DNA of 63,432 nucleotides. It comes from Rhizophagus irregularis (Eukaryota). The notes under the pieces were generated by a model. The model was not told the DNA's origin, searched no databases, and saw only the letters and a list, made by a program, of their open reading frames with translations. Shown in pieces: positions 3,323 through 62,221 of this stretch (the first letter of the stretch is position 1; the number at the start of each line of letters is the position of its first letter). A program made the translations under genes and the position numbers. The DNA lies in assembly GCF_026210795.1 (NCBI RefSeq), contig NC_089433.1:5766001-5829432 (forward strand), written 5' to 3'.

Positions 3323-3517
3323 GCCATTATAAATTTTGACATTAAAAATAAAAATTTATTTTAAATTCTTCAGAATCAAAATGGTCCAACTTCTCTTTAA
3401 ACACAAAAAAAATGTAAAATACATGTAAGTTGTAAGTATAAGATTGTAATATAGTACTGATATCGGTATATGATATTTAAGATAAACCATTTTTTTTAGA
3501 AAAAGAAAGTCAATGTT

Positions 3518-22749: not shown

Positions 22750-22915
22750 ATTAATTTGAATGTTAATAAAATGTTTTAACCGTTGTTGAGAATTATTAGC
22801 GTTTGTAAATCAAATCTTCGCTTAAAATTGATACAAAAAATTCAGTCGTTTATATAATAAATCAAGTTACACTATATGATATAATACAGTATTGATTTCA
22901 GACTAACTTTATATA

Positions 22916-25909: not shown

Positions 25910-26125
25910 TGAAAAAAAAGCAGATTTATTTTTTATATAAATAATTTAATGCAGATTTAAAAAATGCAAAATATTTTTTTGACGTGTGCTTTTATAAATT
26001 TTATGATAAATCAGTCTTTGAGTAACTTTCTACGTGTTTTTTTATGGTTAATTAAAACTATATATAATAAGCATTTATTTACGATAAAATTTATCCCTAA
26101 CTTCTCTGTCTTTAATTTATTATAA

Positions 26126-26973
26126 TGCTCAGAAAAAAAAAATATAAACCACAAAAAAATACGTTTGATAACAGATTCTATAACAATCCATACTTTTACT
26201 AAAACCCTATAAAAAAAATTTTACTTAAAATATATTTAAAATATATTTAATTTTCTTTAAAATATACTTAATTTTCTTATTTTATACTTAAAATATACTG
26301 AAAATTGAATTTTCGCAAAATTTGAATTAAATTGTATTTAATATATACTTAAAATATATTTAATTTACATTTAAATTTTGCCCATTTCAGTATATTTTAA
26401 GGATATTTAAAATAAGAATATTTTAAGTATATTATTATATACTTAAATTATACTTAAATGATATTTAATTTTTGCCTATTTCAGTATATTTTAAGTATAA
26501 AATAAAATTTTAAGTTTATTTTAAGTATATTTTAGCAAAAATATTTTTTATAGGGAAAAAGTAATACACAAAATGAAAGCAATCTAAAATATAATGCTTT
26601 TATTAGAGATTTACGTTCGGAATTCAGAAATTTACGAAAAGAAAACTATCATTTAATAAATCAATTATCTTTGAAAGTAAAAACGGTTAAAGAACTAGAA
26701 GCAGAAAATGAAATGTTTGGTAAAACAATTGAACTGTTGGAATTAGAAAACGTGTCACATAAGAAGGAACTAGATTTGATTAAGAAAGAAAACGCGTATA
26801 GAAATAACTATGAAGACAAATACGTCGAAAATTTAATTAAAGAAAACACATCTTTAATTGAACAAATAAAAATTTATAATAAAGCAATTAAAATATACCA
26901 AAACAAAATTGCTATGAAAATTTCCAGGCAAGTGAAACCAGAATTTGACTTATATTTCTTAAATTTTGATTAA
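26126..26973 (+). pseudogene. Coiled-coil hypothetical gene interrupted by MITE
   Basis: MLRKKKYKPQ... from 26126 ends in TAA just before the MITE; open frame SNTQNESNLKYNAF... after the MITE runs into ORF 26671-26973. Confidence 0.5.
26205..26555. mobile_element. CCC-ended (CACTA/EnSpm-like) MITE
   Basis: CCCTATAAAAAAA ... TTTTTTATAGGG inserted in an A-run; internal ATATACTTAAAAT repeats; same terminus as 28237-30240. Confidence 0.85.
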
Positions 26974-27349
26974 ATATTCTGTGTTTGGCATAGATTTATT
27001 TTCTCTTTTTTTATATTCGGTCAATCAATTTATAATTTTTTGTATTTTATTTGCAAGTCAGTGTAATAATAAATATGAATCAATAAAAAGTAAACGTTTA
27101 TTACGTGAGTCACATAGGCACTTTATTCGAGTCTTATTAAATATGTTTAATAATCATGAACATAGTGTGAGTGCTCATTGTTAGAGATTAGCAATTCATT
27201 TTTCAAGTATAATGCCGTAATGCAGGTCAAGATTCACGTGAAAGTGGAATTGTATAATTTTGACATAGTAAAAGTGGTTTTTCTTTATTATTCAAATTTG
27301 ATAATATAATCATTTTTTAATTTGTAAACAAACGTTACTTTATTCGACA

Positions 27350-40142: not shown

Positions 40143-42389
40143 ATGAGTTTTGCTATAAGAAAAAAATTCTCGAACAAATTCCTGAAAAATATAGAAAAAA
40201 CCTATCGTCCTGTTTCCAACGACGAAGATATATATCGTACATACTCGTCACCCAACAAAAAATCCAACATGACTTCCAGTCAACCTATAGGTCCTACTCA
40301 GACTGCTAACAACGCTACAACGGACACAACTATGGAAGAAGCATCATCTTCCTCTCCCGCTCATGCTCTTTCGCACAGCGAAATTGAACTTACATCACGT
40401 GACTTACATGAAAAAGATATTCACACGCAAACACCAATCACTGAAATATTGACTAATATGGATGTAGATCCTATTATTACTAACACAGATAAAGGAAAAT
40501 CGCTGGAAACACAGTCAGCCACACAAACAAATACCCCTAATCCGTTACAAATTACGGTGCTAACAGATATATTTGAACAAACACCACAAGTTTCAAACAA
40601 AGCACACAAAGGATTTATTCCTAGAGATAGTTTCCCACCGAAACTCTCTAACAACGAAATTATCAATCTAATAAAAACGTCATTCATCAAGGATAGCAAT
40701 GCTTTTAGATTTGACGTCAATACAACATCCACCTACAGATATTTTACTATCTATTTCAGAACACGTGACTCGCTTGACTAATACATAGCAAAAAGTCCCG
40801 ATAACCTCAAACATGTAAAAATTTACGAACTCACCAATGAGGCTATCAACACATTAATAGAACAAAAATTCTCTAATCTAGACCAGGCTGTTATAAAAAT
40901 TATGGATATACCATACAACTACGATACATCCATGCTTATCAAGCACCTCGCTATAAAAACAGGCAGCAATATCATAGATCATAAAGAAATTAAAAAACCT
41001 CCAAGAAAGATTTCCAACCGCAGCACTCGCGGTCGCCCTATCTTCATAAAACCTGCTTACAAACAACTTATTGTCCGATTTGACAAACAAGCAGCATATG
41101 ATTATTTCATGAATGAAAACTATTGGAGCCTCGAAATCGAGAACTTCGTAGTAAGAATCTTACCTGGTAACCCCGATGATCCCGAATATAAGAAACGCAC
41201 CAGTCATTACTTCAAAATCACTGGTCTCCCACTCAATTCCACAGCTAAAGACATTGAACCTCTTATTAAACACGTCTACGGACGAACTTGTACATTTACA
41301 CAAACCACCAAATATTCAACCATGAAAAATGCCTATATTTACGTCTCACCAAACAATTATCCGACAGACGCGATCAATGGCGCCTCCTCACTTTTCGAAG
41401 GATACAATCTCCACGTCCTACCAGGACACCTTTCACTAAAGACATGTAATACTTGTGGATCACCACTCCATGAGGCAAAAAACTGCGACGACAAAAATTT
41501 CGACATCGATCAAAACAATCGAAAAATCTTCAAAAAACGATTTATTAATCGTAACGAAGAAAAAATTGCAATTAACGAAAACCACAGAGCTAGATTTAAC
41601 CATGTCATTACTCTGAATGCAAATAAAAGATCTCCCACGATGTCACAAAATCCTAAACCCAACCATACACCACCGCGCAACTACAACAACAAGAATAACC
41701 AACAATCAGGTAGCTTATTATATCCACGACAGACCAAACAACCATATAATAACCATAATAATTATGGCAACAATAACAAGGATTTAAAATATGATAATTC
41801 CTATATCGCCCCTCACCTGGACAATCCCCAAGTGACCGATATCAATCGTTCTGAACAACGAATTACACAATTGGAACAACAAGTCCAATCCCTCTTACAG
41901 AGTGTTAAAACACTCCAAGATGGAAAATCTAAAGTCGATAGTACTATCGCCGATATCCATCACAACCACAATTTAATGAGCTCTTCGCTCAATGACATCT
42001 CCACCAGACTTGACAAATACGACACAATTATCCAACAACTCACGACTAATATTAATTTACTTAGTCAAGAAAAGATTTCAGAACATAAAGAACGTAACGT
42101 CAAAACACCAAAATGACCGTCTCCATACGAACAATCCTCGTATAGAGTAACAAAAAATAGATACAACCTAAGAGGCAATAAACATGGTAATACCACAGCG
42201 GATGACAGCGAACAACCCTTGGCAACCGATGAAGACACCGATGCCCCCGACGAGGCCGTCATGTCAGACGGTGCCGTCTTTGAAGGAATCATTGATGAAT
42301 TGTCAAATACAACACTGACTGAAACTAAATTTTCAGTCAAATCCTACAATCCCCTTAACCTCCTCCCGCAGTTTAATGCGACACGTTAA
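40143..42389 (+). pseudogene. LINE ORF1 (gag-like; CCHC knuckle, coiled coil)
   Basis: One frame with two premature stops (TAA 40779, TGA 42114); CNTCGSPLHEAKNC = CX2CX4HX4C. Confidence 0.9.
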
Positions 42390-42519
42390 TTACGTGCTTA
42401 CCATTAAAACTTATATATCTCCTCTTTATTTTGGATATACTTTTTGGACTTCCCCATTTTGATTCTAACGGTTTAACATTTCTATACACATATTGATTCT
42501 CTTTATATACAATTTTATT

Positions 42520-45500
42520 ATGGAATACACCAATTTACAACCCCCGGCTGACCTCGAAAATCAGCCTTTTGCACCAGTTTTACAATATTCTCATACTAAA
42601 CATAACAAAAACACAAAATCACAAAAAAATTATAAAAAACCCCAAAACCACAAAAATATTAATCAAAACTTTCATACCCCAGACAATAATGATGCACCAA
42701 CAACAAGTTCACGATATTATATTTGTGAACCTCGTAATGATGAAGATGAAAATATGCTAAATTACATTGAACACCATTTATTTGATGACCAGGATACAAT
42801 AGCGTCAACGTCGTCTACCTCTCAAATACACGACACCCCCATATCAACATCTTCTCAATTACGAACACAATTTATTGATTACCATAAATTTGGTACAATT
42901 AATATTCAAGGAGGATTCAATAATAAATTGAATGATATCCTCCATTTTTTCACGCTTCATAATTATGACATACTTATTTTGACCGAAACAGGTCTCCACC
43001 AATATACTAATATAGATATGGACCTTAAGAAAGCAACACATTCAACGCATTCACTTCCAGTACTGAATAATGATAACATTATTCATAATATTCATTTTTA
43101 TATAGATGACAAAGGAAATACCAAAGGTAGTGGAGTTTCTATGATGATCACGGATCAACTGCAAAAACATATTATCAAAATCAACACCTTTCATAGCCGT
43201 ATTTTAACGGTCGATTTATGCTTTAAAGGCAATCATTATATCAAATTTATATGTTGTTATTTACCAGCTAATGCTGTTGACGACAAAGAATTGATTATTA
43301 AATGTTACAAAGAAATTGAAAACATTTTAATCACGGCTAAACACAATTATTTTGAATGTATAGTTTTAGGTGATTTAAATATTAGTTTCGACAAACTAAA
43401 AAAATCTAATCATTACCCTATTTGGAGACGTGAAATCAATACAATCTTTAAAAACTTTGGTCTTAGAGACTTACTTAAATCATTTCACGATCACCCGAGC
43501 CCGACGCATACTACTAAAAGGAAAGAAGGATCAGATATACAATCTCGTATAGATTACATCTTCACCTCACCTAATATCCTTCACTATAGCTTTTATGCTT
43601 ATACTCATAGTGTCTCTGAAGATTTTTTTACCACAGATCATCAGGCTCTTAGTTGCTATTTGACGCAAGATTATTTCAAAAACAAGTCTAACAGCTCTAG
43701 GAAAAGCTTAGAAAATTCACTCACATATAAACCTAATACAAACCCCAAAATTCAATTTAAATATCACTTAATGACCACAGAATCCTGGTCTGATTACAAA
43801 GTTACCAACGGTATTATTTATCGACAACATATTAATGATAAACCAACCCTACCGGATATAACACCAGAACAACAGATCGAATTATATTGGTCTAATATTA
43901 AAGATATTATCAAACAGACAAAAGATCGATGTATCCCTTCTTCCACATATAAAAAATACACGAAACATGATCGTCCATTATCTTTACAACAAAATAACAA
44001 CAAAATACTGATACTTCGTATGATTTTACGAAGATTTTTTAATATTAAAATTAATCGATTACAAGATGATCTTGACAAATGGAAAGATTATTGGAATACC
44101 TGGGATAAATCACGCAAATAAATTCTGGTTATCGACGTTCACTTTAACGCCAAACGTACTATTTGGCTACCATATACTTTGACGCCCAATAATATATCTG
44201 ACGTTAAAAAAGATTTACAAAGCCTTTTGCGTATATCTATTGTCCTACACAAACAAAAAGAAGATTCATGGACTATTAACAAAATTAATAGATATATTAA
44301 TGATAGGAATAATAATTTAATTCATAATCAAAAAAGGATGATTAATAGTATCCTTGACCGTAAACCCCAAAAAATAACATTAGATCGTTTACATTATTAC
44401 GATCATCAAACTAATCAATTTCAATTTACTAACAATCCTCATATTATAGCAGAACAAACTAATTTACATTTTCAATGTTTAGGAAAAGACCTTAACGAAC
44501 TTAATAATGTTAAAAAGTATAAGTCAATTCAAGACCTCCCGTTATATTGGAGATCAACCTATGAACCTATTAACAACCGTGATTGTAAACACATGACGTC
44601 ATTAGCGGATGAATTTTCAATTGACGAATTATCCCAAGTCATCTCATCACTTCCAAACAATAAAGCCGCAGGCATTTCCGGCATTACATACGAAGACATC
44701 AAACATACACACCAAGACTTTAGAGAATACATTAACAAATTTTTCAATTATATTATGCAGGTCCAAATTTATCCACGGGACTGGTTACATGCATTCCTTT
44801 TCCCTATACCTAAACCAAAGGCTTGGGATTGCAAAATAGAAAATACTCGACCTATAGTCTTGTTAGAAACGTTTAGAAAATTGTTTGTCAAAATTTTGAT
44901 ACAAAGGATTAACATCACGCTTACGACATACAACCTGATTAATGAAAACAATCGGGCTGGCCTAACGGGACAATCCACGTTACAACCATTACAAGTCGTC
45001 CAACATATAATTGAATCTGCTTATAAAGATAAAAAACAATTATGGATTGGTCTACAAGACCTCAGCAAGGCTTACGATAGAGTTAATTTATCTCTGTTAC
45101 GATTAGCATTAGAACGCCTACACTTTCCGACTACAATTACCACTCTTTTAATTTCTTTATTTAGTGATCGGAAAAATAATGTTATTTTACCTTTTGGTTT
45201 ATCTGCCGATTTTGATGTACTTCAAGGCATAGACCAAGGAGAAGTCATCAGCCCAATTGTATGGATTATTTATTATGATCCTATGTTCACATATTTGTCA
45301 CAATTAACCGAAAATTTACATGTCACCTCCGTTAACAAGATCAACAATATTTACCAACCTGACTCCGACCTACAGATTAATTATTCAGCATCTGTGGTGG
45401 GTTATCTTGATGATACCAGCTGGTTTGCTTCTTCCAAATCACAATTGGAATCCAACCTCCAAATAGCAAATTCTTTTTATGACATGGCGAACATCACTAT

Positions 45501-48500
45501 CAATCATGACAAATATATCATCCTTACCAACAACCCTAAACTTTGTAATAAGGAGTTACAATTCCAGGTCACCCCTGACAAATCAATAATGATTAAAACA
45601 GCGTCACGGGCCTCATCTAACCGCATTCTTGGAATCTACATTAACGCATTTAATTCACATACGCCAACGCTAAAGAAGATTAAAAAAATAGTTAATCATT
45701 TTGCGTATACAATGCGTTTTAAAAAAATAACTCACGACCACCTTATTTATATTATTAACAAAGTATTATTACCCAAACTGGAGTATATCAATCAATTTAC
45801 TATTTTCACACGTTCGCAATGTGATTCTTTATTAGCTCCAGTTAAAAAACTTTTTAAACAACATTTAAAATTACCAATTTCTACCCATAATAATATTATT
45901 CATAACAAATTATTTCCCTCCATTAATAGTTTTTTTTATAACCAATTTTATTCACATATATCAATTGTTAACGTTATTTTCAACACTCCCATGTTTTCCA
46001 CTATTGGTTTACAAAAGATTTTGAATACACAATATGATTTTTGGATACCGAATTTTCCAACGTCCAAAGACCTATCTAATCCTATTTCTTCAAATTATCA
46101 ATCCCTTTTAACCCGACAATTACGTCTCTTTAACAAGTTTTATATAACTTTTTTACCACACTGTAACACGTCTATCACAGGTGGTAGTAACTCTATAATA
46201 TCGTATTTTAATTCACATGATTCTCTCGATACTTTATCCAGTAACGACCTTCAAAGTTTACGGAAAAAACGTATAATGTTTATGGATCAATTAACTTCCC
46301 TCGACGGTTCTTTTCTAAGTACCTGGAAAGACGTCAAAAAACAAAACCCTAAGGCAAATTTTAAAGGACCTACGCCCAAGTGGTTTCAAAACCTTGAACA
46401 ATTTAATATTCTGGTGGATGACAGTTCACGACGCCTATTACGAAATTTGATAGTTTCGCCTCCGGCCAGATTTGACTCTATGTCTCCCCCTTTACGAAAA
46501 GCTCATAAATACCGCCCTAAGAATGAATGGACCATTTCTTGGGACATGGTACACCAGTGTGAATTATATGGCTAAGGTTGCTTGTCTAAACCTCTTCAAA
46601 ATCCTACGATTAGTTTCGTCAAAATTTTACTATAGATTTATTATAGTTTCGGCAGAGTTTCGGCAGTTTCGGCATTTATAATAAGTTTCGGCAGTTTCGC
46701 CTTTCTCCAAAGTTTCGCCAGTTTTTTAATATAACTTTAATATAGTTTTGGCAGAATTTCGCTTTTCAGCAAAACGCCATCTTGCCTAAACCCCTAGGTT
46801 TCGGCAAGCAACCTTATATATGGCAAGACGATTGAACAACAAAATGATTTATATGGTACTAGCCTTACTTACCGAACACATTATCTTCCTGTGGTTAATG
46901 CAGATATTAGAACCAATTTAACACCCAAAAGAATAACCCCTATTTTACATCCTTGTACAGGACTATGTGGTCATAGTGTACCTTTTAGTGGTGATCTACG
47001 TCCAAAATGTGTTATTGTTTCTTTAACATCACATTTGATTCTTTTTAAAGTTCATGCAAAAACTTTTATACCTAATAAACCTTTTATAAAATTAGAGAAA
47101 TTTTTTATTTTTCCAGTTACACCTTTACATACCCTTCGTACTCAAGCGTTTACATATAGTAAATATAGATTAATTACACCCAATGTTTTACCTCCAACGA
47201 TTCCTGTTTTATCTTCTTTGGACTCATATTTAAATGAGAATTCTTTATTATTTACTAATAATTTGATCAATTTAAATTTAAATATCTCTTCTTCCCTTTT
47301 TATTAAAAATATTTTCGTAGGAAATAGAGATTTAATTATTCAACTTTTAGAAATAGCTAAACAATTTTTGTCACGGAAAAAATTTATTTTTTATACTGAT
47401 GGTTCCTTTGCTTCTATAGATGTTAATTCTTCTACTCAAACTCAAATGGGTTTTGCCTGGATAGAGATTACTGATATAACTCCTGATTCCAGTTCTCCTC
47501 CACCAATATACAAAGGCGCTTTATCTTTTAATCCGTCTTCTACCAAAGCAGAAGTTTATGCGCTTTTAACAGCCATTATTGCTGTACCTGATGCGAGCGA
47601 ATTGGATGTCTTCACAGACTCGCTGAACGTTATTCATACTTTCCATACAGTTACTAATAAATTAACCTCCACAAGAAGAACGTTGAAATGCAATAATCAC
47701 CTAGCGTGGCGCCTAATAGACACGTTAATTACGAAGAAATCATTAATCGTCCGTTTACACAAAGTCAAAGCTCACTCCAATAATTTTTGGAATGATATGG
47801 CTGATAATTTAGCTAATGCTACACGACAACTGGCACCCTATGAAATCAATCCCACAACTTTACCGGGTTCTTTATTGACCCCTATTTGGGCTTCTATAGC
47901 GCCGATTGACCGTGATATCAGAAAATTTTGTCACAATTTAACAGATGTTTACACTTTTAATCAATTTTTGGGTAATTCTTCACTCTCACCCATTTTTGAT
48001 AGATTCCCCTTATCCTCAATACATTGGCCTCTAACTAGAGCGTGGTTGCAATTTAATTCCACACCGGATGTATGTAGCTCCACCAAATCCTCACACCACG
48101 CCTATCGAATTAAAGCACTTAATCATATACTTCCTTGTGGTGATGTTCTTACCAAACATTACCCTGATTTCTACCCCAATAATTATATACCCTGCCCGGT
48201 GTGCAATGACCATCAAGATACTAATGAACATTTGGGAATTTGTTCAAATCTTTTACCTGTAATTAATCACATTTTAGTGGAACACAAGAATATACTACAA
48301 CGTCTCCTTGAGGAGCATACTTCGTACAATCCTGCCCTCATCACACAATCCATCGATCAGTTGGATCTTTTATCACCGATCTCGGAGTCGAACTCTTACA
48401 CCCATCCAATATATTTAATTATACACCAACTTATTTCACAAGATTTTTATAACCTTGTGCGGTCTTTTACCTTTAATGATAAACTTACCCGTTCCATCAT

Positions 48501-49002
48501 ATGGGAATTCTTAATCTTATTTCACGACCAAATCTATCAACAAATATGGCCTAAACATTGTTCTTTGCTGAAATTGTGGGAACAACGTAATGGAATCACA
48601 CCCAAACGCAAACGTGATTTTCGTAAGAAAAAACCTAGGAACTCACGTGATCACCAAACAGCACAGCTTATTACTCAACCTAGAATTGTCTCTACTTCTT
48701 TTCACGGATCACAAAATCTCTCTCCGCCTAGAGCTAGGACGAACTTTTCACCTTCAGATGGTATTTCTCGCCGTTCATCCCACCCTTGGACTTCTTCGGC
48801 CCCGTCTACTCGTCCTTCTCACTTACCGCAACTACCGATGTGGTTGATTTTGTGCACATGTAATTTTTTACATTCCGGTGGATGGTTATCTTCTGTCCGG
48901 CATCCTAGTAGTTTTGAGTTAAATATAGATAATTTTTCTTCTTCATGTAATTTTAATTTTAATTTTTTTAGTTCTTCCTTTTCTTTTGATCGTACTTTCT
49001 GA
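42520..49002 (+). pseudogene. LINE ORF2: AP endonuclease, reverse transcriptase, RNase H, C-terminal Zn finger
   Basis: APE: TINIQG, LTET, GDLN, SRIDY, TDH; RT: PIPKP, RPIVLLE, DLSKAYD, QGEVISP, YLDD; RNH: YTDGS, AE, TDS, VKAH, NDMAD; CPVC...HLGIC; one stop (44119) and one MITE insertion. Confidence 0.95.
46573..46816 (+). mobile_element. 244-bp hAT-like MITE, copy 4, inside LINE ORF2
   Basis: Same TIR; 8-bp TSD TATATGGC; removal gives in-frame ...ELYG-KTIEQQNDLYG...LPVVNAD. Confidence 0.97.
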
Positions 49003-50183: not shown

Positions 50184-52856
50184 CTAGCTGTTTATATTTT
50201 TCTTTATGGATTGGGATAAATTGTGCGATAATTTTGAAATTTTTCTCTTTTTCCTAGATGGCATCATATTAGGATCATTCTCTTTAGAATGTTTACGCCT
50301 TTGGATTGAAGCTACTTGTACTGGAATTTTGCGATTTTTCACATTAAATCTTGAATCCAAATTTTGATAATTTTGGTGTAAATATGATACTAGTTGTCCA
50401 TTAGATGTATTCTTAGCTTTTTCATACCCCTTTTGAAAACTTTCCATGCCTAATAATAATTGATCGTTATTTGTAACATCTTGATAAACAGAATCAAGAA
50501 ATTCTTTAATTAACTTGACACGATATTCTCTATTTTGGTGATTAAGTTCTAATTCCGAAGATCTAAAATAAAATATCATAAACACTATAATATCAGACAA
50601 TTTATTTAAAAATTTAAGCATTATTATATATACCTTGCAAAGATTTCCGATGAGTTCGTATCTAACAATCTCAGTGCATTATTTTCCAATAAATTTGCAT
50701 GATTATTTTCTGATGGGCTTGCATTGTTATTGTTATTTTCCAATGGGCTTTCTGGACTTTCTGATGGATTTGTATTATTATTTTCCCATATATTATTTAT
50801 GTTACTATCATTTCCTAATATGTTTGTGGCGTTATTTTCTAAAAAATCCTTAGTTTTTATTTCAGCATGAAATTTTACATAAAAGGATTTGTCCATTACA
50901 CAAATGCCTTGTGCGATATAAGTATAACACATCAAAAATAATGAAGGTATATAGTTGATTGATGATTAATGGCCACAGCTGCTTGATGTTTATAAGGCCC
51001 TCCTGCATTACCTTTCGGACATGTGCATATACCAATATTTGAATCAACTATATAAAATATATCTGACTTTGACGTACTTTGAACATAATACATATGTTCA
51101 ATATTAGCAGAAACAATTTTATTTTGGTCAACAGATTCCCACCTTGGACAAAAAAACCTTTTTGAAATACTGTTTAATTGCTTATTTGCAATAGCTAAAA
51201 GCTTCCTTTCATAAAATCTTTCCATATTACCAATAATAAAAAAATAAATTTGAATAGGATTATAAGCTTTAACTCTACTAAAAATAATATCTTTTATAAT
51301 TCCAAAGCTCCTTTCTACATAATTATTTGTATGATTTCCTCTTGTTGAAGCACCATTACGAAATGATACTGCCCAAAATTCTCTTCTTTCCCAAAGGAGT
51401 GAACAATGCCTTGCCAATTTAGAATACTTATTATACCATTGTAACTGGAATTTCTGGTATTCAACATTCATAATATTTTCTGAATTGGCATATAAAATTC
51501 TTTTAAAATCTGAAATAACTGTTGAACGATCATCTTTTTTAATTTGGTTATTAGCATTCCATAGTCAACGCCATAATGCTTGTAGCACATGAAATATACA
51601 AAGAAACCTTTTTGAATTTGGCCAGCAAAGTTCAATAGCATTACGTTCAGCTGCAGAATCATCAGTCATAAACATAGAAGGATCTAGATCTACTCCTCGA
51701 CCAAAAAATGCATTTGAAGGTAAAATACTTTTTAATTTATTAATGGCAAATTCAATTGTAACTTCTGATTCATCAGAAGTTAAAAAAAGATCAAAAGGAA
51801 GCGCACCAGCAACACAACTGGTATATAATAACGTAATTGAAGTATTTAAAGGATCAAAGCTAGATGATGCATCAAAATAACAGATCTCTCCTGCCTGTCT
51901 AATTTTTTCATGCACTCTTTTCATTAAATTAGTTACAATAGCAAGAATAAATGGTTGCCCAAGTTCTTTATTATATTCACATAGTATTGCATTTCCTAAT
52001 CCTGAATTATAACTTCTTCTTTTAATTTTTCAAACATTCTTGATCCATTACTTGCACCTAAATTAATTTCTCTATATTTTTTAAAGAGATTGTAAACAAA
52101 ATTATAGTCTGAATTTGTTGCTCGGTCAGCCAACAAAGTAATTAATTCCTTTTCATTAGCAGCTGCTAAATGTAAATTATCTTCATAAGTATAAATTGCA
52201 GTTGCTGGTGAGTAACCATTTTTAAATAATTCAATATATTTATCTCAGGTAATTTTGCTAACTGGGCGGAAGCTAAGTGATTCAGCTGAATATGGAATAT
52301 GATTATATATATATTTAATGTGTACATGCATTATTAAATTTTTTTTTTCAATGCGCATTAACATTTTGGATTGACAATTAATATTACGTGTACGAAGGCT
52401 ATTTTCTTGTTTACTAGTTCTTGAACCCTGTTTTGTTTTTACAGTTTTACTATGTATACAATGCCTTTCTTCTTTAAAAACAATTTTTTTTCCTGTTATA
52501 GTTTGCTCTCTAGTTATACATATTGTAGTCTTTGATTTTTCTTAAAATTTTTCAAACCATATCAATGCATCATCTTTTGTTTGAATATTTATTAATAAGT
52601 CAAAGATAAATTGCTTTAACTCTATATCTTTATCAGTAAATAATGATGGAAGTATGTCCATTTTTTCAAGCTGATATTTATAATCACAAGGCAAAATTTC
52701 TTTTAAGTCAGGTGGCAATTCGGACTCTAATAAGCAAAATGTAACGTTAGACTTGAAAAAAAACTTAAAAATTTAACAAGAAAATAATAAATAAACACTT
52801 AATAAACATAAAAATAAAACTATACCTTCTATACTTTGTAATGTCTTAGAGCTCAT
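50184..52856 (-). pseudogene. MULE transposase with SWIM finger, degraded
   Basis: CYFDAS...FMTDDSAAERNA...LCIFHVLQA...TNNYVER; SWIM CTC-x7-[Y]KH (Cys lost); exon 1 52856-52826, intron 52825-52727; stops and frameshifts. Confidence 0.9.
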
Positions 52857-54399
52857 TGCTAAAATTAAAAAGTATAAAGTGTAAGTATAATACTTCAATA
52901 TTATACTTCAAAAAAAAATTTTCGCGTTTCGTATATCGAAAAGTATATAATGTAATACAGATCAAATATCACAATAATCACATATCATGTGACTTTTAAA
53001 AAACTGCACCCACAAAACGGGAGTGCAATTGTACAACTGCTTCTATCATGTAATCTTAGATATTTGCATCAGGAACTTATAAAATTTTCGAAAGCAATTT
53101 ATCAAAAGAAATCAAAATTTTTTGCCCAAATCAAAATTTTTTGCAACAAGTCACATATTAAAATAAATCACATGATAATATTATTATTGGTTCTAGATAG
53201 ATATTATCATGTGATTACATTCAGTAAGCTGGAAACCTGAAGTTCAAAATTCGAAACTCTTCATAATTCCAGCCAGAGACACCTGGTGACTTGAGCTTAA
53301 TTCTGGCCAAAATCAAAATAAATCGAAATTTTTAGTCAACTGAAAGAAATTTTAATTCAAATTGAAATAATATTTACTGGGCTAAAATAAATGCTATAGC
53401 AATAGTATATATAAAACATGCACACACATTTAAAAAATTTGAAGTAAAATCTTTATTATATTTTTGTAAAGTAGTACATGAGAAAGGGTCGGCCAGTTAA
53501 GTAAAAAATGAAACTAATAAGAGATATTGGAGTAGCAGATTGTTTCAAGGAAAGAATTTTGCTAAGCCCCAACCCATATAATGGCAGTTCCTTCCCTGCT
53601 ACTCAGTAACGATGTAAAATCAAGTTGGATAATTGATTTATATAGATATAAGGATATAAAAATTATTAATTATTTTGGTACATTGTGATCAAATTTTGAT
53701 TTCATCGGGAAATTTTTTAAGATGCAGAACTGCGGAGATCTGTAAAATTAGCAGATCTCCGCATTTTTTTTGTGAATTTATGTGGAAGTCTGTGATTTTG
53801 CAGATTTCTGCTTTTTATTTTTTACAAAGTTATGCAATAATCTGCAATTTTGCAAGTTTCCGATTTTTATGTATGAATTTCTGCGGTAATCTGCGATTTT
53901 GCAGATTTCTGCTTTTTTTTATGTGAAATTTATGCGGAAGTCTGCAATTTTGCAGATTTTTGCTTTTTTTTCATTAAAATATCAGTTCGATCTGCAATTT
54001 CATCATTGATTTAATATTTAAACTTTAATTAACTCTAACTTGATTTAATACCTAAATGATTTTTTCTACAATACTCTTTAAAAAGAAAAACTTTACAAGA
54101 CTTTAAAAAAATAATTTTTTCTACAACACTTATTACTAAAGAAAAAAACTTTGTGAAATAATTTTTCTACAACACCTTTTAGGAAATAATCTGTTAAAGA
54201 TTCCAAAGAAAAAATATTTCTATTATTTTTTAAGCTTCGAAACTTATCAGAGAAATTTTTTTTTTAAAAAAAAAAATTTATTTGTAAGGTTCGGAGTCTT
54301 TAAGGCAAATTTGTCTAACATTCGGCACATAATCTATGCAACATGCAGGGAAATTAGAACTAAAAAGAAGTCGTATTCCTTTTTTTTCTTTGAAAAAAA

Positions 54400-57300
54400 A
54401 AATTTTTTTTAATGAACGTCAGTTAACGTTCAGTTTGTAAGTCAAGAACATAATAGAGTCTATTGTCAATTTAATTTGGAGGTATATCACCTCTGAAACT
54501 TTAATTATTTTTAGAGAAAAAAAAATTTTTTTATATTATATAGGTTCCAGATGGAATCTATCGATGATTTTATTTGGAATTCGGAGGTATGCTTACCTCC
54601 GAAATTTAATTTATTTTTTTTAAAAAAAAATTTTTTTTTTATATTATATAGGTTCCGGATAGAACCTATCAAAGATATTGGAATTCGGAGATATGCTTAC
54701 CTCCGAATCTTAATTTATTTTTTTTAAAAAAAAATAATTTTTTTTATATTATATAGGTTCTGGATGGAACCTATTAAAGATATTGGAATTCGGAGGTATG
54801 CTAACCTCTGAATCTTAATTAATTTTTTTTTAAAAAAAATAATTTTTTTTATATTATATAGGTTCCGGATGGAACCTATCAAAGATATTGGAATTCAGAG
54901 GTATACTTACCTCCGAATCTTAATTTATTTAAAAAAAAAATAATAATTTTTTATTTATATTATATAGGTTCTGGATGGAACCTATCGATGATTTTGAAAT
55001 TCGGAGGTATATTAACTTCCAAATCTTTAATTTATTTTTTAAAAAAAAAATAATTTTTATTATATTATATAGGTTCCGGATGGAACCTATTGATGATTTT
55101 TGGAATTCAGAGGTATGCTTACCTCCGAATCTTAATTTATTTTAAAAAAATAATTTTTTATTTAACGAACGCCACTAACGTTCATTTTTCATATTTTTAA
55201 GTCCTGGAAGCCAAAGTACGGCTCAGGACATTTTTTTTTAATTAAGTTATCTAATGAACGTTGCTAACGTTCGATTATAGGTCCTGGACGCCGAAGAACA
55301 GTTCTGGACATTTATTTTGAAGGTAAAACCTTTACTTTCAAAATTTTTTTTTATATTTTTGTTTAACGAACGTCGCTAACGTTCATTTTTTATTTTTTTT
55401 TAGGTCCTGGATGCCAAAGTACGGCTCCGGACATTTATTTCGAAGGTAAAATTTACCTCCGAATTTTTTTTTATTTTATTTATACCTACGAACATTAATT
55501 TACGTTCGTTTTACATTTTATAGGTTCTGGACGCCAAAGTACGGCTCCAGACGTTAATTTCGAAGGTAAAACCTTTACCTTTGATTTTTTTTTTATTATT
55601 ATTTAACGAACGTTAATTAATGTTCGTTTTTATATTTTATAGGTCCTGGACGCCAAAACCAGCTCCGGACTTTACTTTGAAGGTAAAACCTTCGAAAAAA
55701 AAAATTTTTTTTTTTGTTAACTTTATTGACGAACGTTAACTAAGTTTCATCTTATTTTTTTAGATAAAGGAAGCTGAAACTGAGTTCCGGGCTCCTATAT
55801 CGAAGGTAAAATAAACCTTTAAATTTTTTTTTCTTTTTATTTAAACGAACGTTCACTAATGTTCGTTATTCTTTTTTTTTAGGTAAAGGAAGCCGAAAGA
55901 ACTTCCATATCGAAGGTAAAATCTTCGATTTTTTTTTTATTATTTTATTTAATGAACGTTACTAATTCTAATATTCATTTTTTTATTTTTCGTAGGTACA
56001 ACCGTACAAGAAACTGAAAGGCAGGTTCCGGTCTCCTATTTTGAAGGTAAGGCTTCGAAATTTCATTTTACTTTTTTTCTTTTATTTTAGCGAAATGTTT
56101 ACTAACGTTTCGTTTTTCTTTTTTGTAGGACTACAGCACTCTGGACGCTTCGTGGGCTCCATTTCGAAGGTATATTATCCTTTATATTTTTCGAAAGTGT
56201 TTATTTTTATTAGTTTTTTTTACAAACGTTAACTAACATTCGTTTTCATTTTTGTAGGTCCAAGACGCCGAAAGTACGTGTCTCAGATTCAATTTCGAAG
56301 GTAAATAACTTCAAAAAAAAAGGAGTCTCTTTTTTTTTTAACGAACGTTCACTAACGTTCGTTTTTCTTTTTCTTTGTAGGTCCAGGACGCCGAAGGACT
56401 TTAATTTCGAAGGTAAACTTCGATTTTATTTTTATTTTTTATTTAATTTTTTTTTGTTTATTTTAATGAAGCATTATTAACGTTTCAATTTTCTTTTTTT
56501 AGGTTTCTGGCTCTCCTGAATTCTCCTGGACGGAATTTCAAGGTATTTCTTCAAAATTCTTTTATTTTTTTTATTTTATTGTTGTAAAAGAACGTTTCTA
56601 ACGTTCTTTATTCTTTTTTTTTTAGATTTTTGGCTCTCTGGTTTCAGCCTGGACGGAATTTTCAACATGGTTAGTTTCGTAACGAACTTTTCATTACGAA
56701 ACTATTTTTTTTTTTATTTTATTTAAACGAAACGTTACTAATGTTTTGATTTCTTTTTCTTTTGTAAGTTTTCCGGTAGCCACCTGGATTGGACGGGATT
56801 TCAAAGATGAAACTTCGAAATTATTGTATTTTCATTTTTTATTTGAACGAAATGTAGACTAACATTTCGATATTATTTTTTCGTAGGTTGACGGCTTCAT
56901 AATACCCTTTCTTGAAAGAATTTCGAAGGTATACTTCGAAATTCTTTTACTTTTTTTATTATTTTTGATGAAACGTTACTAATGTTTCGTTTTTTCTTTT
57001 TTTTGTAGGTTGACGGCTTCCTGTGAACCTTTCCGATTACAACATTCAAAAAGAATCCACTCTTCCATCTTTCTCCGTCTTCGTGGCGATATGCAAATTT
57101 TTGTTAAAAAACTATTACTTTGGAAGTTGAGTCTTCTGGAATGAATTTTGAAGGTAAACTTTGAAATTCTTTTACTTTTTTTGTTTTTTTTTATTTGAAC
57201 GAAATGTTTACTAACGTTTCAATTTTCCCTTTTTACGGCTTTCCAGATGCCTCCTGGATGAAATTTCGAAGGTAAAACTTTGAAAAAATAATTTTTTTTT

Positions 57301-57831
57301 GTTTTATTTTAACGAACGTTCATTAACGTTTGTTTTTATTTTTGTAGATCCAGGATGCTGCCGGACTTCCATATTGAAGGTAAAACCTTCGAAAATTATT
57401 TTTTATTAATTAATTTATTGACGAACGTTAACTAACGTTCGTATATCTTTTTTTTTAGGTAAAGGAAGCCGAAAGACAAGTTCCAGACTCCCATATCGAA
57501 GGTAAAACCTTTCAAAATTATTTTTTATTAATTTATTTGACGAACATTAGTAACGTTCATATTTCTTTTATTTTAGGTCCTGGGTTCCCATTTAAAGAAC
57601 TTCAAAGGTAAATACTTTGAAGTTTCTTTTTTTTTTACTTCTTTAATGATCGTTATACTAATGATCGTTTTTTCTTCTATGTTTAAGTCCCAGACTGCTG
57701 GGTTAGATATTTCGAAGCTGCTTGCTTCGAAATTTTTTTTCGTTTGTAGGTATCCGTTGTTTGTTGGAATCGAACTAACTGGAACAATGTCCAAACCATT
57801 AACAACATGTAAATGTGCAGTAAAGAGATGA
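54400..57831 (+). repeat. Tandem array of ~28 intron-like repeats separated by mostly 30-50 nt variable micro-exons
   Basis: Unit ~105-125 nt: YAG|exon ending TTCG(A/G)AG|GTA...T-tract...AACGTTNNCTAACGTTCG...T-tract YAG (branch hairpin evident from ~55145 on). Confidence 0.85.
57029..57138 (+). pseudogene. Captured polyubiquitin fragment spanning a monomer junction
   Basis: Translates with small indels as LSDYNIQKESTL-HL-LRLRG(D)/MQIFVK--TITLEVESS. Confidence 0.92.
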
Positions 57832-60301
57832 TGAATAGCAATGACTAGTAATAGATTTCAATTGTATTTGTAAACTTGTTAATATATAATAAAAAAGTAA
57901 TTTTGATTATATAAATAAATTAGTAATTAATGCAATAAATTAATTTGTATTATTGTGACGCAGATTTTTACTGAAAAAAATTGCTGAGGTATTTCGAAGG
58001 TTTTTATTTAAAAATCTGCGCAGAACTTTGTTATTTATAAAATCTGCGCAGTTTTTTATTGGATTTTTCCTCTAATGTTTTGCGCCAGGGTATAAGATCT
58101 GCGCAGATATAATTTCTGAAAATCTGCGCAGATCTGCTCCCCAAAAAATTTCCCGATGTTAAGAATAAAATCAAATTGCTACTTCTTACCATTTTAGACA
58201 CTAACAATTGTGATTTTATTTAAAATAATCTATAATCTTTAATAAATAAATTCCAATATTTACAGTGATTTATGGAAAAAGATTTCAATATTATAACAAT
58301 ATAATTGTCGTGATTAAAGTCACTGGTTAAATGATGAGATATCGGGTTGTGACATATCAGATAAAATCGGAAAAATATCATAAACTGATATGCCACTAGC
58401 AGATCATTTTAAAAATTGAACATAGATTAGTAACCGATAGGCAAGTGATATTTATATGATTATAAATAATTTTTTTAAACTCATATCAACAAGTTATCTG
58501 GTTCTTATTGGATATCTGATAAATTATTGATTTTTATATGATAATAATATAATATTTATATAATATTTATATTATTGTACAAATAATTTTTTAAGATAAT
58601 CGTATTTGAAGTGTTAAAATTTTAGAGTTTTGCCATAGTTTCAGCATTCCAATCTTTTTACTGTATAATAATTTTTTTAATTTCAAACGGTTACCAATAA
58701 ATCTATATGTAATTAAAATTTATTGTAAAATTATTTATTGTAATATTTTTATTTTATTGTATGTAATAAACTGATTTTTTATTGATAAAGAACTTAATTA
58801 ATGATATATGTTGAAGTTCACGTCCTAAAGTAAAAAAAAGAAATATTAATACATTCATTTCTTTGAAGCAATTAAGTAAAACTCCCACTCATACTATCTT
58901 CAAGTCTGGGTTCGATTAAGAATATCTGGTAGAAGAAAAAAAATTAGAGTAAATGTTAGTAATATATAATATATTAATAAAAAAGAACCTCCTCTTCCCT
59001 CTAACTTACATACTTAAAATTCAAATTCGGGTTCATCCAAGAAGTCTAAGGAATATAAATATATTTTTTATTCCTATGCACACACACACCCACCCATCCC
59101 ATTCACCTGTCTGGTTCACGTCCCTACAAAAGACAAGAAATCTAAGAAGCTCAGCATCCTAAAAAATTAGAAAAAAAAACATTAGTATTGTTTCTTTAAT
59201 GAATTAAGCTTTATTTTTACATGTACTGTACATATAACACTCACTTTTTACTTGTATAGTTTATTCAAGTCCGATGTTTGACATCTTACAAAAGAAGAAA
59301 TCCAAAAAGTTGTCCTACAAAAAAAAAAAGTACGGATAAATAATTTTTTTAAAAAAAAATTATCAATGATCAGTAAATTAATTAGGAACTGATCGGAAAT
59401 ATGTATATCATATGATTATGGAGTAATAGAGTCGTATGCATACTCCTTTCCTCTTCTTTTTTTTTTTTAGGTTCAGACCAGTAAGTTAAATATATATATA
59501 TATATATATTAATAAATAGAACCTTTTCTTTATTCTTTTTTTATAGCTTCTGGTCCTCTTTTAAACGCCATTCAGACTGGTAAGTTTAAAAATTTTTTTT
59601 TAAATAGAAGGTGTATAGGCATATACTAACCTTTTACTTTTTTCTTTTTGTAGGTTCTGGACCTTTTTTATACGCTGTAAGTTTTAAAAAAAAATTTTTT
59701 TTTAAATAGAAAGTGTACAGTCAATTCCTTCTATAGTCACTCCCATTATAAACACATTCTACTATATAGTCATACCAGTTAAATGTTCAAAACACTTTAT
59801 TATTAAAATCTATCCTATATAGTCACAATCTATCTATAGTAACTATCACACCTATCCTCAAAAATCTTATATTAAAAAGAACCGTTTATAATCACAGTTA
59901 TATAAAGAATATATTAAATAACTTGACATCTAATAATCGTATAAAAATATATCATAGCTTGTTAGAATTGTCTTACTGAGACGAATTGAATAGTGGTAGT
60001 TTTATCATTTTACTTTGCTAGTGTTAATAGCCAGACCTCCCATTGCCTCTTATGAGACTAATCTCGGGTCTGTGTCCTATCATCTCCATGGGTAACCATT
60101 AAACTGAGTACTTAATTCCTCAGGTAACAGCACCACTTGAAGACATCTCCCATCGGGTCATTTTAGGCTGATCTGAAGCTAGGTACACGCCGCCTACTTA
60201 TCTTATATCCATTGCATGATACTGGTACTCAATTTATTTTACGACCTTTAGAGAGCACCTACTTTCATGGAGGACTTTCAACAGGTAATATCAACCATTT
60301 A

Positions 60302-61141
60302 CATCAGGAAATTTTATAGTGCGAAAAATTGCGTAAGTTTACGATTTTGTAAGTTTACGAAAGTTTATGGCATAATATTTCGAAAAATTTCAAAATATTA
60401 CGTAAGTTTACAATTTCGTAAGATTTATGTGATATTACGGTTAAAATATTACACAAGTTTTCAATATCGTAAGATTTACGCAATATTACGGTTAAAATAT
60501 TTTGAAAATTTACGAAACTGTAAACCTGCGTAATATTACGATTAAAATATTTCAAAAATTTACGAAACTGTAAACCTGCGTAATATTATGATTAAAATAT
60601 TTCAAAAATTTACGAAACTGTAAATCTGTGTAATATTACAGTTAAAATATTGCAAAAATTTACGAAACTGTAAACCTGCGTAATATTACAGTTAAAATAT
60701 TTTGAAAATTTACGAAACTGTAAACCTGCGTAATATTACGGTTAAAAATATTTTGAAAATTTACAAAATTGTAAACCTGCGTAATATTATGGTTAAAATA
60801 TTTCAAAAATTTACGAAACTGTAAACCTGCGTAATATTATGATTAAAATATTTCAAAAATTTACGAAACTGTAAATCTGTGTAATATTACAGTTAAAATA
60901 TTGCAAAAATTTACGAAACTGTAAACCTGCGTAATATTACAGTTAAAATATTTTGAAAATTTACGAAACTGTAAACCTGCGTAATATTACGGTTAAAAAT
61001 ATTTTGAAAATTTACAAAATTGTAAACCTGCGTAATATTATGGTTAAAATATTTCGAAAATTTACGAAACTGTAAACCTGCGTAATATTACGGTTAAAAT
61101 ATTTTGAAAATTTACGAGATTGTAAACCTGCGTAATATTAC
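60302..61141 (+). repeat. 50-bp tandem repeat (~16 units) following a CATC-type TIR
   Basis: Unit GTAATATTACGGTTAAAATATTTCAAAAATTTACGAAACTGTAAACCTGC; preceded by CATCAGGAAATTTT, similar to the TIR at 53703. Confidence 0.9.
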
Positions 61142-61549: not shown

Positions 61550-62221
61550 CGCTCCAGGTAAAAAGTATCCAGACCATCTAAAAATTAAAAAATCTTAAAA
61601 AATTCAGTGGGCCCAACAATAAATTTATATTTATTTTAAAAGTTTGAGCATGAGACACTTTTTAAAAGTGTTTTTTTAGCTTAATTATTAGTAAAAATTG
61701 GCGGACATTTTAATTAAAAATGGCAAAATTCTTAACTTTTTAACTAGAAACATTACGGCCAAATGAATTCCAGAAATCAATTCTTTGACTAAAAAATAGC
61801 TTATGTTTAAAAAATCAGAAAGATTGGACTGGTAGTTGCCGAAAAATCCACCACTGAAGATCATAATTTTTATATGTAAAAACGGTAAAATCACCATTTT
61901 TGCCAAATTTTAGTATAAAAATTATGATCTTCGTGGTGGATTTTTACGGCTACGTCCAATCTTTCGATTTTTAAACATAAGCATAGTCCAAAGTTGATTT
62001 CTGGAATTCGATTTGGCCGTAACTGCTCTATTAAAAAGTTAAAGCCATTTTTGAATTAAAAATGTCGCCAATTTTTACTAATAATTAAGCTAAAAAAACA
62101 CTTTAAAAAGTGTCATCATGTCTCAAACTTTTAAAATAAATATAAATTTATTGTTGGGCCAACTGAATTTTTTAAGATTTTTTAATTTTTAGGGTGGTCG
62201 GATACTTTTTACCGGGGAGTG
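61550..62221. mobile_element. Fold-back Tc1/mariner-like MITE (672 bp)
   Basis: TA-CGCTCCAGGTAAAAAGTATCC ... GGATACTTTTTACCGGGGAGTG-TA; the two ~320-bp arms are reverse complements. Confidence 0.9.

What the first reader, a model, noticed from the sequence alone, without database searches (positions are those of the whole stretch)
57008..57153. Polyubiquitin fragment captured inside one exon of the array
Seen: this exon begins like its neighbour (GTTGACGGCTTC) and ends with the array consensus (GAATTTTGAAG). It contains ~110 nt encoding the ubiquitin C-terminus directly followed by the N-terminus (LRLRG-/MQIFVK). Established: that junction marks a polyubiquitin (or ubiquitin-fusion) source, and TITLEVESS is the fungal/plant rather than animal variant. 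Inference: the array can acquire host-gene sequence, like a spacer or Pack-TE capture, which could produce host-targeting small RNAs.
Basis: partly seen in the sequence, partly recalled or inferred. Interest (0 to 1): 0.8.

Follow-up and report, generated by a model that had tools for sequence, protein, structure and literature searches.

The report
Ubiquitin gene scrap inside transposon exon
A 113-base, frame-broken piece of the organism's own polyubiquitin gene sits inside one mini-exon of an exon-intron array carried by a cut-and-paste transposon; it was likely picked up once during DNA repair and then copied along with the transposon, an ordinary kind of gene-fragment capture with no function shown.

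Summary
Window 57025-57137, inside a predicted 145-nt exon (57009-57153), is a polyubiquitin fragment spanning a repeat junction. Indels leave it readable only in three different frames. Very deep contigs in two runs guessed to be RNA match it at 90% or more and differ by exactly the frame-restoring indels.

The exon belongs to an array of about 26 mini-exon/intron units (54442-57717) inside a 4.46-kb element with terminal inverted repeats and no transposase. Contigs from those two runs join neighbouring exons of close paralogues exactly at predicted splice sites.

The same insert, with the same left junction but different later deletions, sits in a soil-metagenome copy (L001). Contigs labelled as two organisms also bridge it. 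So it was one old capture inherited by copies, now decaying.

No other exon in the three arrays examined is oversized. Spacer-like repeated acquisition is therefore not supported, and small RNAs could not be tested.

Verdict: an ordinary Pack-type gene-fragment capture in an unusual carrier. The array, with its hairpin-framed introns, is the odder object.

The parts
53703..53739 (+). Left terminal inverted repeat of the carrier element (starts CATCGGGAAATTTTTT)
   Evidence: 37-nt arms, 84% complementary with 58122-58158; the 16-mer is exact at both ends; it aligns with both ends of L001.
53740..54000 (+). Left subterminal repeats (TCTGCA..TGCAGA type, 49-nt period)
   Evidence: tandem repeat 53731-54000.
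54442..57717 (+). Tandem array of about 26 mini-exon + intron units. Type A units have a 105-nt period (54482-55111); type B units are about 110-135 nt (55150-57717).
   Evidence: The branch-point motif occurs 15 times against 0.08 expected, all within 54415-57442. Exon edges at 56626-56669, 56769-56806, 57459-57501 and 57688 onward coincide with the ends of pieces of spliced contigs (records 9 and 19).
56929..57008 (+). Predicted intron upstream of the ubiquitin exon. The donor lies in a 14-bp hairpin (56915-56947) and the branch point ACTAAT lies in a hairpin (56967-56991).
   Evidence: MFE -25.4 kcal/mol, z = -4.9, 0 of 200 shuffles as stable. for coordinates.
57009..57153 (+). Predicted 145-nt exon holding the insert. 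The array-type ends are 57009-57020 and 57140-57153.
   Evidence: The L001 orthologue is 2815-2928. Its inclusion in spliced RNA was not seen.
57025..57137 (+). Polyubiquitin-derived insert, in sense orientation. It runs from about codon 54 of one ubiquitin unit to codon 20 of the next; the junction RG/M is at 57088-57093. It is damaged by +1 at 57066, -2 after 57070, -13 after 57109 and -1 near 57028.
57154..57236 (+). Predicted downstream intron. In this copy its acceptor is lost through an 8-nt deletion relative to L001.
   Evidence: alignment columns 454-461.
57718..57810 (+). Conserved tail of the last exon. It begins with a donor-less hairpin, GAAG CTGCTTG CTTC.
   Evidence: 96.7% identical to L001, against 86-87% for the other exons and the introns; contigs run unbroken from 57687 to 57800.
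57960..58121 (+). Right subterminal repeats (ATCTGCGCAGAT type)
   Evidence: 4 matches against 0.05 expected, all within 58014-58133.
58122..58158 (-). Right terminal inverted repeat

Best explanation
A roughly 137-nt piece of the organism's own polyubiquitin gene was likely copied once, as filler during repair of a DNA break, into the middle of one mini-exon of a non-autonomous TIR transposon. It has since been inherited by the descendants of that copy as a decaying passenger.

Shown:
- The stretch is polyubiquitin DNA spanning a repeat junction.
- It is frame-broken.
- It lies in a unit of a transposon-borne array, and the mini-exons of close paralogues of that array are joined at the predicted splice sites in contigs of runs guessed to be RNA.
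- The same insert, with the same left junction, occurs in at least one other element (L001) and in contigs under two organism labels.
- The copies carry different later deletions.

Inferred:
- The way it was captured. Template switching or gap repair is the likely route; a DNA template cannot be told from a cDNA template.
- That it spread by transposition.
- That it has no function of its own. If this exon is spliced in, the element's non-coding RNA would simply carry about 113 nt of sense ubiquitin sequence.
For: Identity of the fragment: (frames and PDB matches). In one search, ubiquitin contigs of depth 14,000-28,000 in X18 and X20 match 57028-57108, lack base 57066, carry CG after 57070, and have ubiquitin-coding loose ends.

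Carrier element: TIRs and subterminal repeats. No open frame exceeds 94 aa and 0 of 102 frames has a Pfam family at E<=0.01.

Splicing of the array:
- X18 record 9 places 56624-56669 directly against 56768-56806 (46 and 39 nt).
- X20 record 19 places 57457-57607 directly against 57687-57800.
- Both cuts fall at predicted GT..AG borders.

One event, inherited:
- L001 2815-2928 has the same exon start and the same left junction.
- It lacks about 54 nt that the window keeps, and keeps 13 + 9 nt that the window lacks.
- It lies in a block collinear with 56798-57808.
- X6 record 24 (organism C) bridges 56953-57121 with 2 differences and no gap.
- X16 record 5 bridges 56708-57298 with 37 differences and 14 gaps.
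- X20 record 18 covers 56915-57093 with no difference.

Decay and lack of coding:
- Three frames are needed to read the fragment.
- The conceptual spliced RNA has 9-19 stops per frame in the window and 7-9 in L001.
- Exons (86.0%) are no better conserved than introns (87.4%).
- Orthologous exons differ by 1-nt indels.

Uniqueness: only this exon is oversized in the arrays examined.
Against: - The ubiquitin-derived positions shared with L001 are better conserved (55 of 56 identical) than the rest of the block (11.9% different; binomial P=0.007; 11 of 816 sliding windows equal it). A pure passenger would not obviously show this. However, the 13 nt kept only by L001 look diverged from the host mRNA, and only two copies were compared.
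- No target-site duplication was found at either element, so mobility rests on the TIRs and on the many similar contigs.
- The kind of X18 and X20 (RNA) is the tool's guess.
- Inclusion of this particular exon in spliced RNA was not seen.
- Nothing here tests small RNAs.
- Only three arrays were read in full, so other captures elsewhere in the family cannot be excluded.
Confidence: 0.7

Rival explanations
1. The insert is kept because it works at the RNA level. Either the element's transcripts feed RNA interference and yield small RNAs that touch ubiquitin mRNA, or homology to an essential, highly expressed mRNA restrains silencing of the element (a 'hostage').
For: The insert is in sense orientation within a transcribed, spliced array. 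A stretch of up to 38 nt (57028-57065) shows no listed difference from the host mRNA contigs (the table is truncated). The shared positions are 55 of 56 identical between two copies that differ by 11.9% elsewhere. The idea is in print for plants: capture sets up cross-talk between silencing of the element and of the gene (bioRxiv 10.1101/777037, abstract only, from the listing).
Against: Each copy has lost a different large part of the insert, which argues against selection on the whole stretch. There is no antisense partner in the window. The only long spliced contig leaves 96 nt between its flanking exons, too little for a 145-nt exon. There are no small-RNA data. The conservation signal rests on two copies and 56 positions.
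Confidence: 0.1
2. The template was not the gene but a cDNA of the very abundant polyubiquitin mRNA, made by a LINE reverse transcriptase and used as filler at a break. This is a variant of step one of the best explanation.
For: Ubiquitin contigs are the deepest objects laid in X18 and X20, at 14,000-28,000 against tens to hundreds for the array. A LINE with endonuclease, reverse transcriptase and RNase H frames lies 8 kb away. The fragment is purely exonic.
Against: The fragment is internal to the mRNA and no A-run follows it at 57138-57153. Polyubiquitin coding repeats normally have no intron (recalled), so DNA and cDNA templates would look the same.
Confidence: 0.25
3. The array is an acquisition device: its exons are slots that repeatedly take up host or foreign sequence, and ubiquitin is merely the one recognisable entry.
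For: Exon cores vary much more between units than the exon ends and introns do.
Against: The cores fall into a few related types with recurring motifs (GTCCTGGACGCC.., GTAAAGGAAGCCGAAAG....CCTCCTGGACGAAATTTCGAAG). They are 22-51 nt long in all three arrays. Orthologous cores in the window and L001 are recognisably the same. The ubiquitin insert interrupts an ordinary core rather than replacing it (compare L001 3014-3054).
Confidence: 0.03
4. The array is a protein-coding gene and the ubiquitin piece adds a ubiquitin-like segment to its product.
For: Open stretches of 93-122 codons occur in each frame of the conceptual spliced RNA. Four of six type A exons are 39 nt long, a multiple of 3.
Against: Each frame has 7-19 stops. 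Exon lengths follow no phase. Orthologous exons differ by 1-nt indels. Exons are no more conserved than introns. The ubiquitin part needs three frames.
Confidence: 0.02
5. Assembly artefact: a ubiquitin read was wrongly joined into a repeat.
For: None beyond the repeat-rich setting.
Against: An independent metagenome contig (L001) and contigs of three runs from three studies bridge the array/ubiquitin boundary.
Confidence: 0.01

Closest known systems
Pack-TYPE transposons / transduplication (Pack-MULE, Pack-CACTA of plants; Turmoil-1 of C. elegans). Abstracts only of PMC8903248, PMC6379663 and PMC2572040, seen in the listing.
   Same: A non-autonomous TIR element with no transposase carries a fragment of a host gene and multiplies it.
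   Different: Only one short (~113 nt), decayed fragment is carried. It lies inside a pre-existing spliced mini-exon array rather than making up the bulk of the cargo. No target-site duplication or superfamily could be shown. The setting is probably fungal, not plant.
Filler DNA / templated insertions at repaired double-strand breaks (recalled general knowledge; no paper read).
   Same: A short stretch copied from an unlinked, highly expressed locus, with a few bases of unclear origin (CTGT) at the left junction and a possible 2-nt overlap (GA) at the right.
   Different: Here the break lay in a mobile element, so the filler was then amplified.
Gene capture and 'epigenetic conflict' in maize (bioRxiv 10.1101/777037; abstract only).
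   Same: A captured gene piece makes element and gene share sequence that silencing small RNAs could recognise.
   Different: No small-RNA or methylation data here. The fragment comes from an essential housekeeping gene and is in sense orientation within an exon.
Introner-like elements of fungi (PMC3609843; abstract only).
   Same: The array's introns are near-identical, about 80-100 nt long, and have stable predicted secondary structure.
   Different: Here they are tandem and sit inside a transposon's own transcript. They were not shown to be dispersed in host genes. The hairpins specifically enclose the donor and the branch point.
Tandem intron + micro-exon arrays
   Same: A repeated unit made of one small exon plus one conserved intron.
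   Different: Those exons are 3-36 nt, keep the frame and build proteins. These are 22-51 nt, follow no phase, and the product looks non-coding.

Membership tests
Pack-TYPE (gene-fragment-carrying non-autonomous TIR transposon) | Terminal inverted repeats | tested here: met
   37-nt arms, 84% complementary; exact 16-mer at both ends; the same ends occur in L001.
Pack-TYPE (gene-fragment-carrying non-autonomous TIR transposon) | Target-site duplication flanking the TIRs | tested here: inconclusive
   The flanks of the window copy and of L001 show no matching duplication of 2-10 nt. The insertions may be old, or the true ends may be mis-set by a few bases.
Pack-TYPE (gene-fragment-carrying non-autonomous TIR transposon) | No transposase of its own | tested here: met
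   The longest stop-free frame is 94 aa. Of 102 frames scanned (87 of the window's 90 listed, 15 of L001's 77 listed), none has a Pfam family at E<=0.01 or above its cut-off.
Pack-TYPE (gene-fragment-carrying non-autonomous TIR transposon) | Internal fragment with an identifiable parent gene in the same organism | tested here: met
   (polyubiquitin); ubiquitin contigs in runs of the same organism label match at 90% or more.
Pack-TYPE (gene-fragment-carrying non-autonomous TIR transposon) | Fragment present in more than one copy of the element | tested here: met
   L001. X6 record 24, X16 record 5 and X20 record 18.
Pack-TYPE (gene-fragment-carrying non-autonomous TIR transposon) | Assignment to a superfamily through an autonomous partner (MULE, CACTA, hAT ...) | not testable with these tools
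   No genome is held. The decayed MULE transposase at 50184-52029 lies outside the TIRs and has no matching ends.
Sequence-acquiring array (spacer-like or small-RNA trap) | Independent insertions of foreign or host sequence in several units | tested here: not met
   One of 25 internal exons in the window and one of 15 in L001 is oversized, and it is the same orthologous insert. None is oversized in L002.
Sequence-acquiring array (spacer-like or small-RNA trap) | Small RNAs produced from the units | not testable with these tools
   No small-RNA run was available.
Functional (poly)ubiquitin gene | Uninterrupted 76-codon units | tested here: not met
   Three frames and four indels. Only about 43 of 152 codons of two units are represented.
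LINE-made processed pseudogene | 3' end of the mRNA with an A-tail, flanked by a duplication | tested here: not met
   The piece is internal to the coding region, and array sequence follows directly at 57138-57153 with no A-run.
Introner-like elements (for the array's introns) | Many near-identical introns with stable predicted structure | tested here: met
   Folds give z = -4.9 and -6.1 for two introns, and -2.9 and -1.9 for two others.
Introner-like elements (for the array's introns) | Copies dispersed as introns of unrelated host genes | not tested
   No genome is held.

The most novel reading that the evidence does not exclude
The carrier is a new kind of transposon cargo. It is a self-contained, transcribed and spliced array of modules in which each intron's donor and branch point are locked in hairpins. 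The ubiquitin piece is not junk: it is kept nearly unchanged (55 of 56 shared bases) because homology to an essential, massively expressed mRNA makes RNA-interference against the element costly for the cell, so the element holds a hostage.
Probability: 0.07. Interest if true: 0.75.

Novelty: new member of a known kind. Interest (0 to 1): 0.4.

Why it matters
Gene-fragment capture by DNA transposons is well documented in plants but rarely described in fungi. This case has clean anatomy: the parent gene is known, the junctions can be read, and two copies decayed differently from one ancestor.

Its practical value is as a marker. The insert tags one lineage of an abundant, expressed transposon family and could be used to date and trace that lineage across strains and species.

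It also gives a ready-made test of whether silencing of a transposon spills over onto an essential host gene. The bigger open question lies around it, not in it: why a transposon carries a spliced array of some 26 hairpin-framed introns.

Tried and rejected
- **Whole genome:** none is held, so no census of copies and no look at the host ubiquitin locus was possible.
- **First read-laying run:** One of the two calls was lost, and 53500-56199 was never laid.
- **RNA runs:** no RNA holder is listed. The kind of X16, X18 and X20 is a guess.
- **Cover of the insert's 3' junction:** no contig of X18 or X20 covers 57118-57171. Nothing can therefore be said about whether the ubiquitin exon is spliced in.
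- **Collection scans:** the 21-mer of the conserved tail gave 0 loci in metagenome contigs. The branch-point pattern gave 2 loci in metagenome contigs, 0 in genome contigs and 0 in viral contigs.
- **Pfam scan for other captured coding pieces:** nothing credible in 102 stop-free frames (87 of the window's 90 listed frames, 15 of L001's 77). The two frames holding the ubiquitin piece were also missed, so the scan cannot see fragments this short and says nothing.
- **Rfam:** no family reached its gathering score in the element (6 weak rows) or in L001/L002 (2 weak rows). No tRNA was found.
- **SP7-like effector genes of mycorrhizal fungi** as a model for the array: dropped. Passages of PMC11333574 describe one conserved intron before the repeats, not one exon per repeat.
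- **Protein-coding reading of the array:** rejected.
- **RNA-level versus DNA-level selection on the donor hairpins:** G-U (14) and A-C (15) mispairs are equally common among 360 stem positions of 40 units, so this cannot be told.
- **Target-site duplication:** none recognisable.
- **Earlier notes of this scan:** none for this genome or sequence.
- **Literature on the array:** one search for transposon, intron and small-RNA work in Rhizophagus returned 15 listed titles, none about such arrays. This is no proof that it is not in print.
- **Depth as copy number:** not used, as the tool warns against it.
Full report
**Setting**

The window is AT-rich, with 22-37% G+C in 2-kb steps, and full of mobile DNA:
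- a LINE-like element with endonuclease, reverse-transcriptase and RNase H frames at 40.8-49.0 kb;
- a decayed MULE transposase at 50.2-52.0 kb on the minus strand.

No whole genome is held, and the scan has no earlier notes on this genome.

Runs that hold the stretch carry three coded organism labels, and several are soil metagenomes. That holder list, the ACTAAC branch points and the S19 form of ubiquitin (the last recalled, not tested) suggest a soil fungus. I could not name it. An arbuscular mycorrhizal fungus is only my guess from recall.

**The carrier element**

Positions 53703-53739 and 58122-58158 are 37-nt inverted repeats, 84% complementary, and their outer 16 bases are identical. 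Inside each end lie short subterminal repeats.

No stop-free frame exceeds 94 aa. A Pfam scan of 102 frames found no credible family. So this is a 4,456-nt non-autonomous TIR element. No target-site duplication could be recognised, and the superfamily is unknown.

**The array**

From 54442 to 57717 the element is a tandem array of about 26 units. Each unit is a predicted exon of 31-51 nt followed by an intron of about 65-100 nt. The intron has a GTAAA or GTATG donor, an ACTAAC-type branch point, a T-run and a TAG acceptor.

The branch-point motif occurs 15 times against 0.08 expected, all inside the array.

Two hairpins frame nearly every intron:
- The last 9-14 nt of the exon pair with intron positions about +6 to +16, leaving G|GUAAA in the loop. 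Over 40 units from three arrays, 302 of 360 stem positions are Watson-Crick.
- The branch point sits in the loop or top of a stem. The stem comes in three types that differ by compensating changes: CGAACGTT/AACGTTCG, GAAACGTT/AACGTTTC and GATCGTTA/TAATGATC.

Predicted stabilities for the intron before the ubiquitin exon and for its L001 orthologue are z = -4.9 and -6.1. Two other units are weaker, at -2.9 and -1.9.

G-U and A-C mispairs are equally frequent (14 and 15). I therefore cannot tell RNA-level from DNA-level selection. CpG is enriched in the array, with observed/expected 1.89 against 1.06 elsewhere in the window.

**The exons are real exons, at least in close paralogues**

Contigs of two runs from two studies, whose kind the tool guesses as RNA, place predicted exons directly against each other:
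- X18 record 9 (653 nt) joins 56624-56669 to 56768-56806.
- X20 record 19 joins 57457-57607 to 57687-57800, while keeping one intron.
- Further pieces of record 9 end at the predicted edges of three more exons.

In the same two runs the ubiquitin bins have depths of 18,600-28,000, against tens to hundreds elsewhere. This is how a transcriptome looks.

This window copy itself is decayed. Donors at 54691 and 56807 read AT, and the acceptor before 57237 is deleted.

The product does not look coding:
- there are 7-19 stops in each frame of the conceptual spliced RNA;
- orthologous exons differ by 1-nt indels;
- exons (86.0%) are no better conserved than introns (87.4%), whereas the 93-nt tail is 96.7% identical.

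No Rfam family or tRNA was found.

**The observation**

The exon 57009-57153 begins and ends like its neighbours. It is 145 nt long because 57025-57137 is polyubiquitin DNA in sense orientation.

It reads NLSDYNIQKESTL, LRLRGDMQIFVK and KTITLEVESS in three different frames. The PDB sequence search matched these to ubiquitin residues 55-67 and to the C-terminus/N-terminus junction. Only poly- or di-ubiquitin chains matched the junction frame, 19 of 19. A ubiquitin-ribosomal fusion gene cannot be the source.

The very deep contigs of X18 and X20 match 57028-57108 at 90% or more. They lack base 57066 and have CG after 57070. Their loose ends run on as ...GKQLEDGRT before the fragment and KTLT... 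after position 57109.

Relative to the organism's own mRNA, the fragment therefore has a 1-nt insertion, a 2-nt deletion, a 13-nt deletion, a 1-nt deletion near its start, and a few substitutions.

**One capture, inherited**

A pattern scan of metagenome contigs returned two loci.

L001 is a complete related element with the same TIRs. Its 3' part, 2603-3590, is collinear with 56798-57808. At the orthologous unit (2815-2928) L001 has the same exon start and the same left junction. It differs as follows:
- it lacks about 54 nt that the window keeps, from QKESTL to MQI;
- it keeps the 13 nt (TLTG) that the window lost;
- it keeps 9 nt of the original exon that the window lost.

Together the two copies imply one ancestral insert of about 137 nt, running from about codon 52-54 of one unit to codon 21 of the next. 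It was placed in the middle of an ordinary exon of the type seen at L001 3014-3054.

Other contigs bridging the boundary:
- X6 (organism C) bridges the upstream intron and the insert with 2 differences and no gap.
- X16 bridges the whole unit with 37 differences and 14 gaps over 577 nt.
- X20 covers the boundary with no difference.

But the sharing is by descent, not by repeated capture.

**No sign of further captures**

In my exon tables, 24 of 25 internal exons of the window are 31-51 nt and 14 of 15 of L001 are 22-43 nt. The L002 exons parsed are 22-32 nt.

The exon cores fall into a few related types.

The Pfam scan for other coding scraps is uninformative, because it missed the ubiquitin frames too.

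**Mechanism**

The most likely history, all inferred:
1. A break occurred in an element copy.
2. It was repaired with a short stretch copied from the polyubiquitin gene or from its abundant cDNA. The two cannot be told apart.
3. The element then spread by transposition, and the insert decayed neutrally.

There is no A-tail and no 3' end of the mRNA, so this is not a processed pseudogene.

**An open point**

The 56 ubiquitin-derived positions shared with L001 differ at only one. The rest of the block differs at 104 of 871 positions (binomial P=0.007; 11 of 816 sliding windows are as conserved).

This could be chance, gene conversion by the host loci, or constraint. The 13 nt kept only by L001 look diverged from the host mRNA, which weakens the case for constraint.

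A role in RNA interference is in print for plant captures, either as small RNAs against ubiquitin or as a hostage that restrains silencing (bioRxiv 10.1101/777037, abstract only). It remains possible but untested. The one long spliced contig leaves only 96 nt between the flanking exons, too little for this exon. No contig of X18 or X20 covers the insert's 3' junction.

**Comparison with what is known**

The finding works like, and mostly qualifies as, a Pack-type transduplication (abstracts of PMC8903248, PMC6379663 and PMC2572040). Of the defining features:
- TIRs, lack of a transposase, an identifiable parent gene and several carriers are met;
- the target-site duplication is inconclusive;
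- the superfamily is untestable.

It is not a spacer-like acquisition array.

The array's introns resemble fungal introner-like elements in being near-identical and structured (PMC3609843, abstract). They are tandem and lie within a transposon's own transcript.

Earlier notes of this scan describe fungal tandem intron plus micro-exon arrays before HET genes (unchecked). Those have 3-nt, in-frame exons.

**Verdict**

This is a real, well-anchored but ordinary gene-fragment capture, and a new member of a known kind. It has moderate interest, mainly as a lineage marker and as a natural test case for cross-talk between transposon silencing and an essential gene. The unusual object is its carrier.

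Noticed in passing
window 54442-57717; L001 1720-3540: Nearly every intron of the array has its donor in the loop of a 9-14-bp hairpin formed with the exon end, and its branch point in a second hairpin. Stem variants differ by compensating changes. The array has twice the CpG expected (o/e 1.89 against 1.06 in the rest of the window).
   Followed up: partly
window 57718-57810; L001 3499-3590: The tail of the last exon is 96.7% identical between the two elements. It is far better conserved than the TIRs (76-78%) or the other exons (86%). It starts with a hairpin whose loop has CT where the other units have the GT donor.
   Followed up: partly
L001 600-1700: A 1.1-kb tract of about 20 tandem AACGTT-centred hairpins with no exons between them. 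It lies where the first intron of that element would be.
   Followed up: no
L001 2200-2560: A third unit type: exons of 22-26 nt with GTGAGT donors, and TACTAAC introns rich in TTTTCG repeats.
   Followed up: no
window 40782-49002 (+): A LINE-like retrotransposon with Exo_endo_phos, RVT_1 and RNase_H frames. The same 27-nt tandem repeat flanks it at 34614 and 46656.
   Followed up: no
window 50184-52029 (-): A decayed MULE/Mutator transposase split into at least three frames. It lies just outside the left TIR of the array element and has no matching ends.
   Followed up: partly
window 60302-61141: A second TIR-like end (CATCAGGAAATTTTAT, 2 mismatches to the element's TIR), followed by 14 copies of a 50-nt tandem repeat. 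L002 carries ends of the same CATCAGGAAATTTTT type.
   Followed up: no
window about 61560-62215: A large inverted repeat (foldback-like), seen by eye in the sequence print.
   Followed up: no
window 54691, 56807, 57229-57237: This copy of the array is itself decayed. Two donors read AT instead of GT, and one acceptor is removed by an 8-nt deletion relative to L001.
   Followed up: yes
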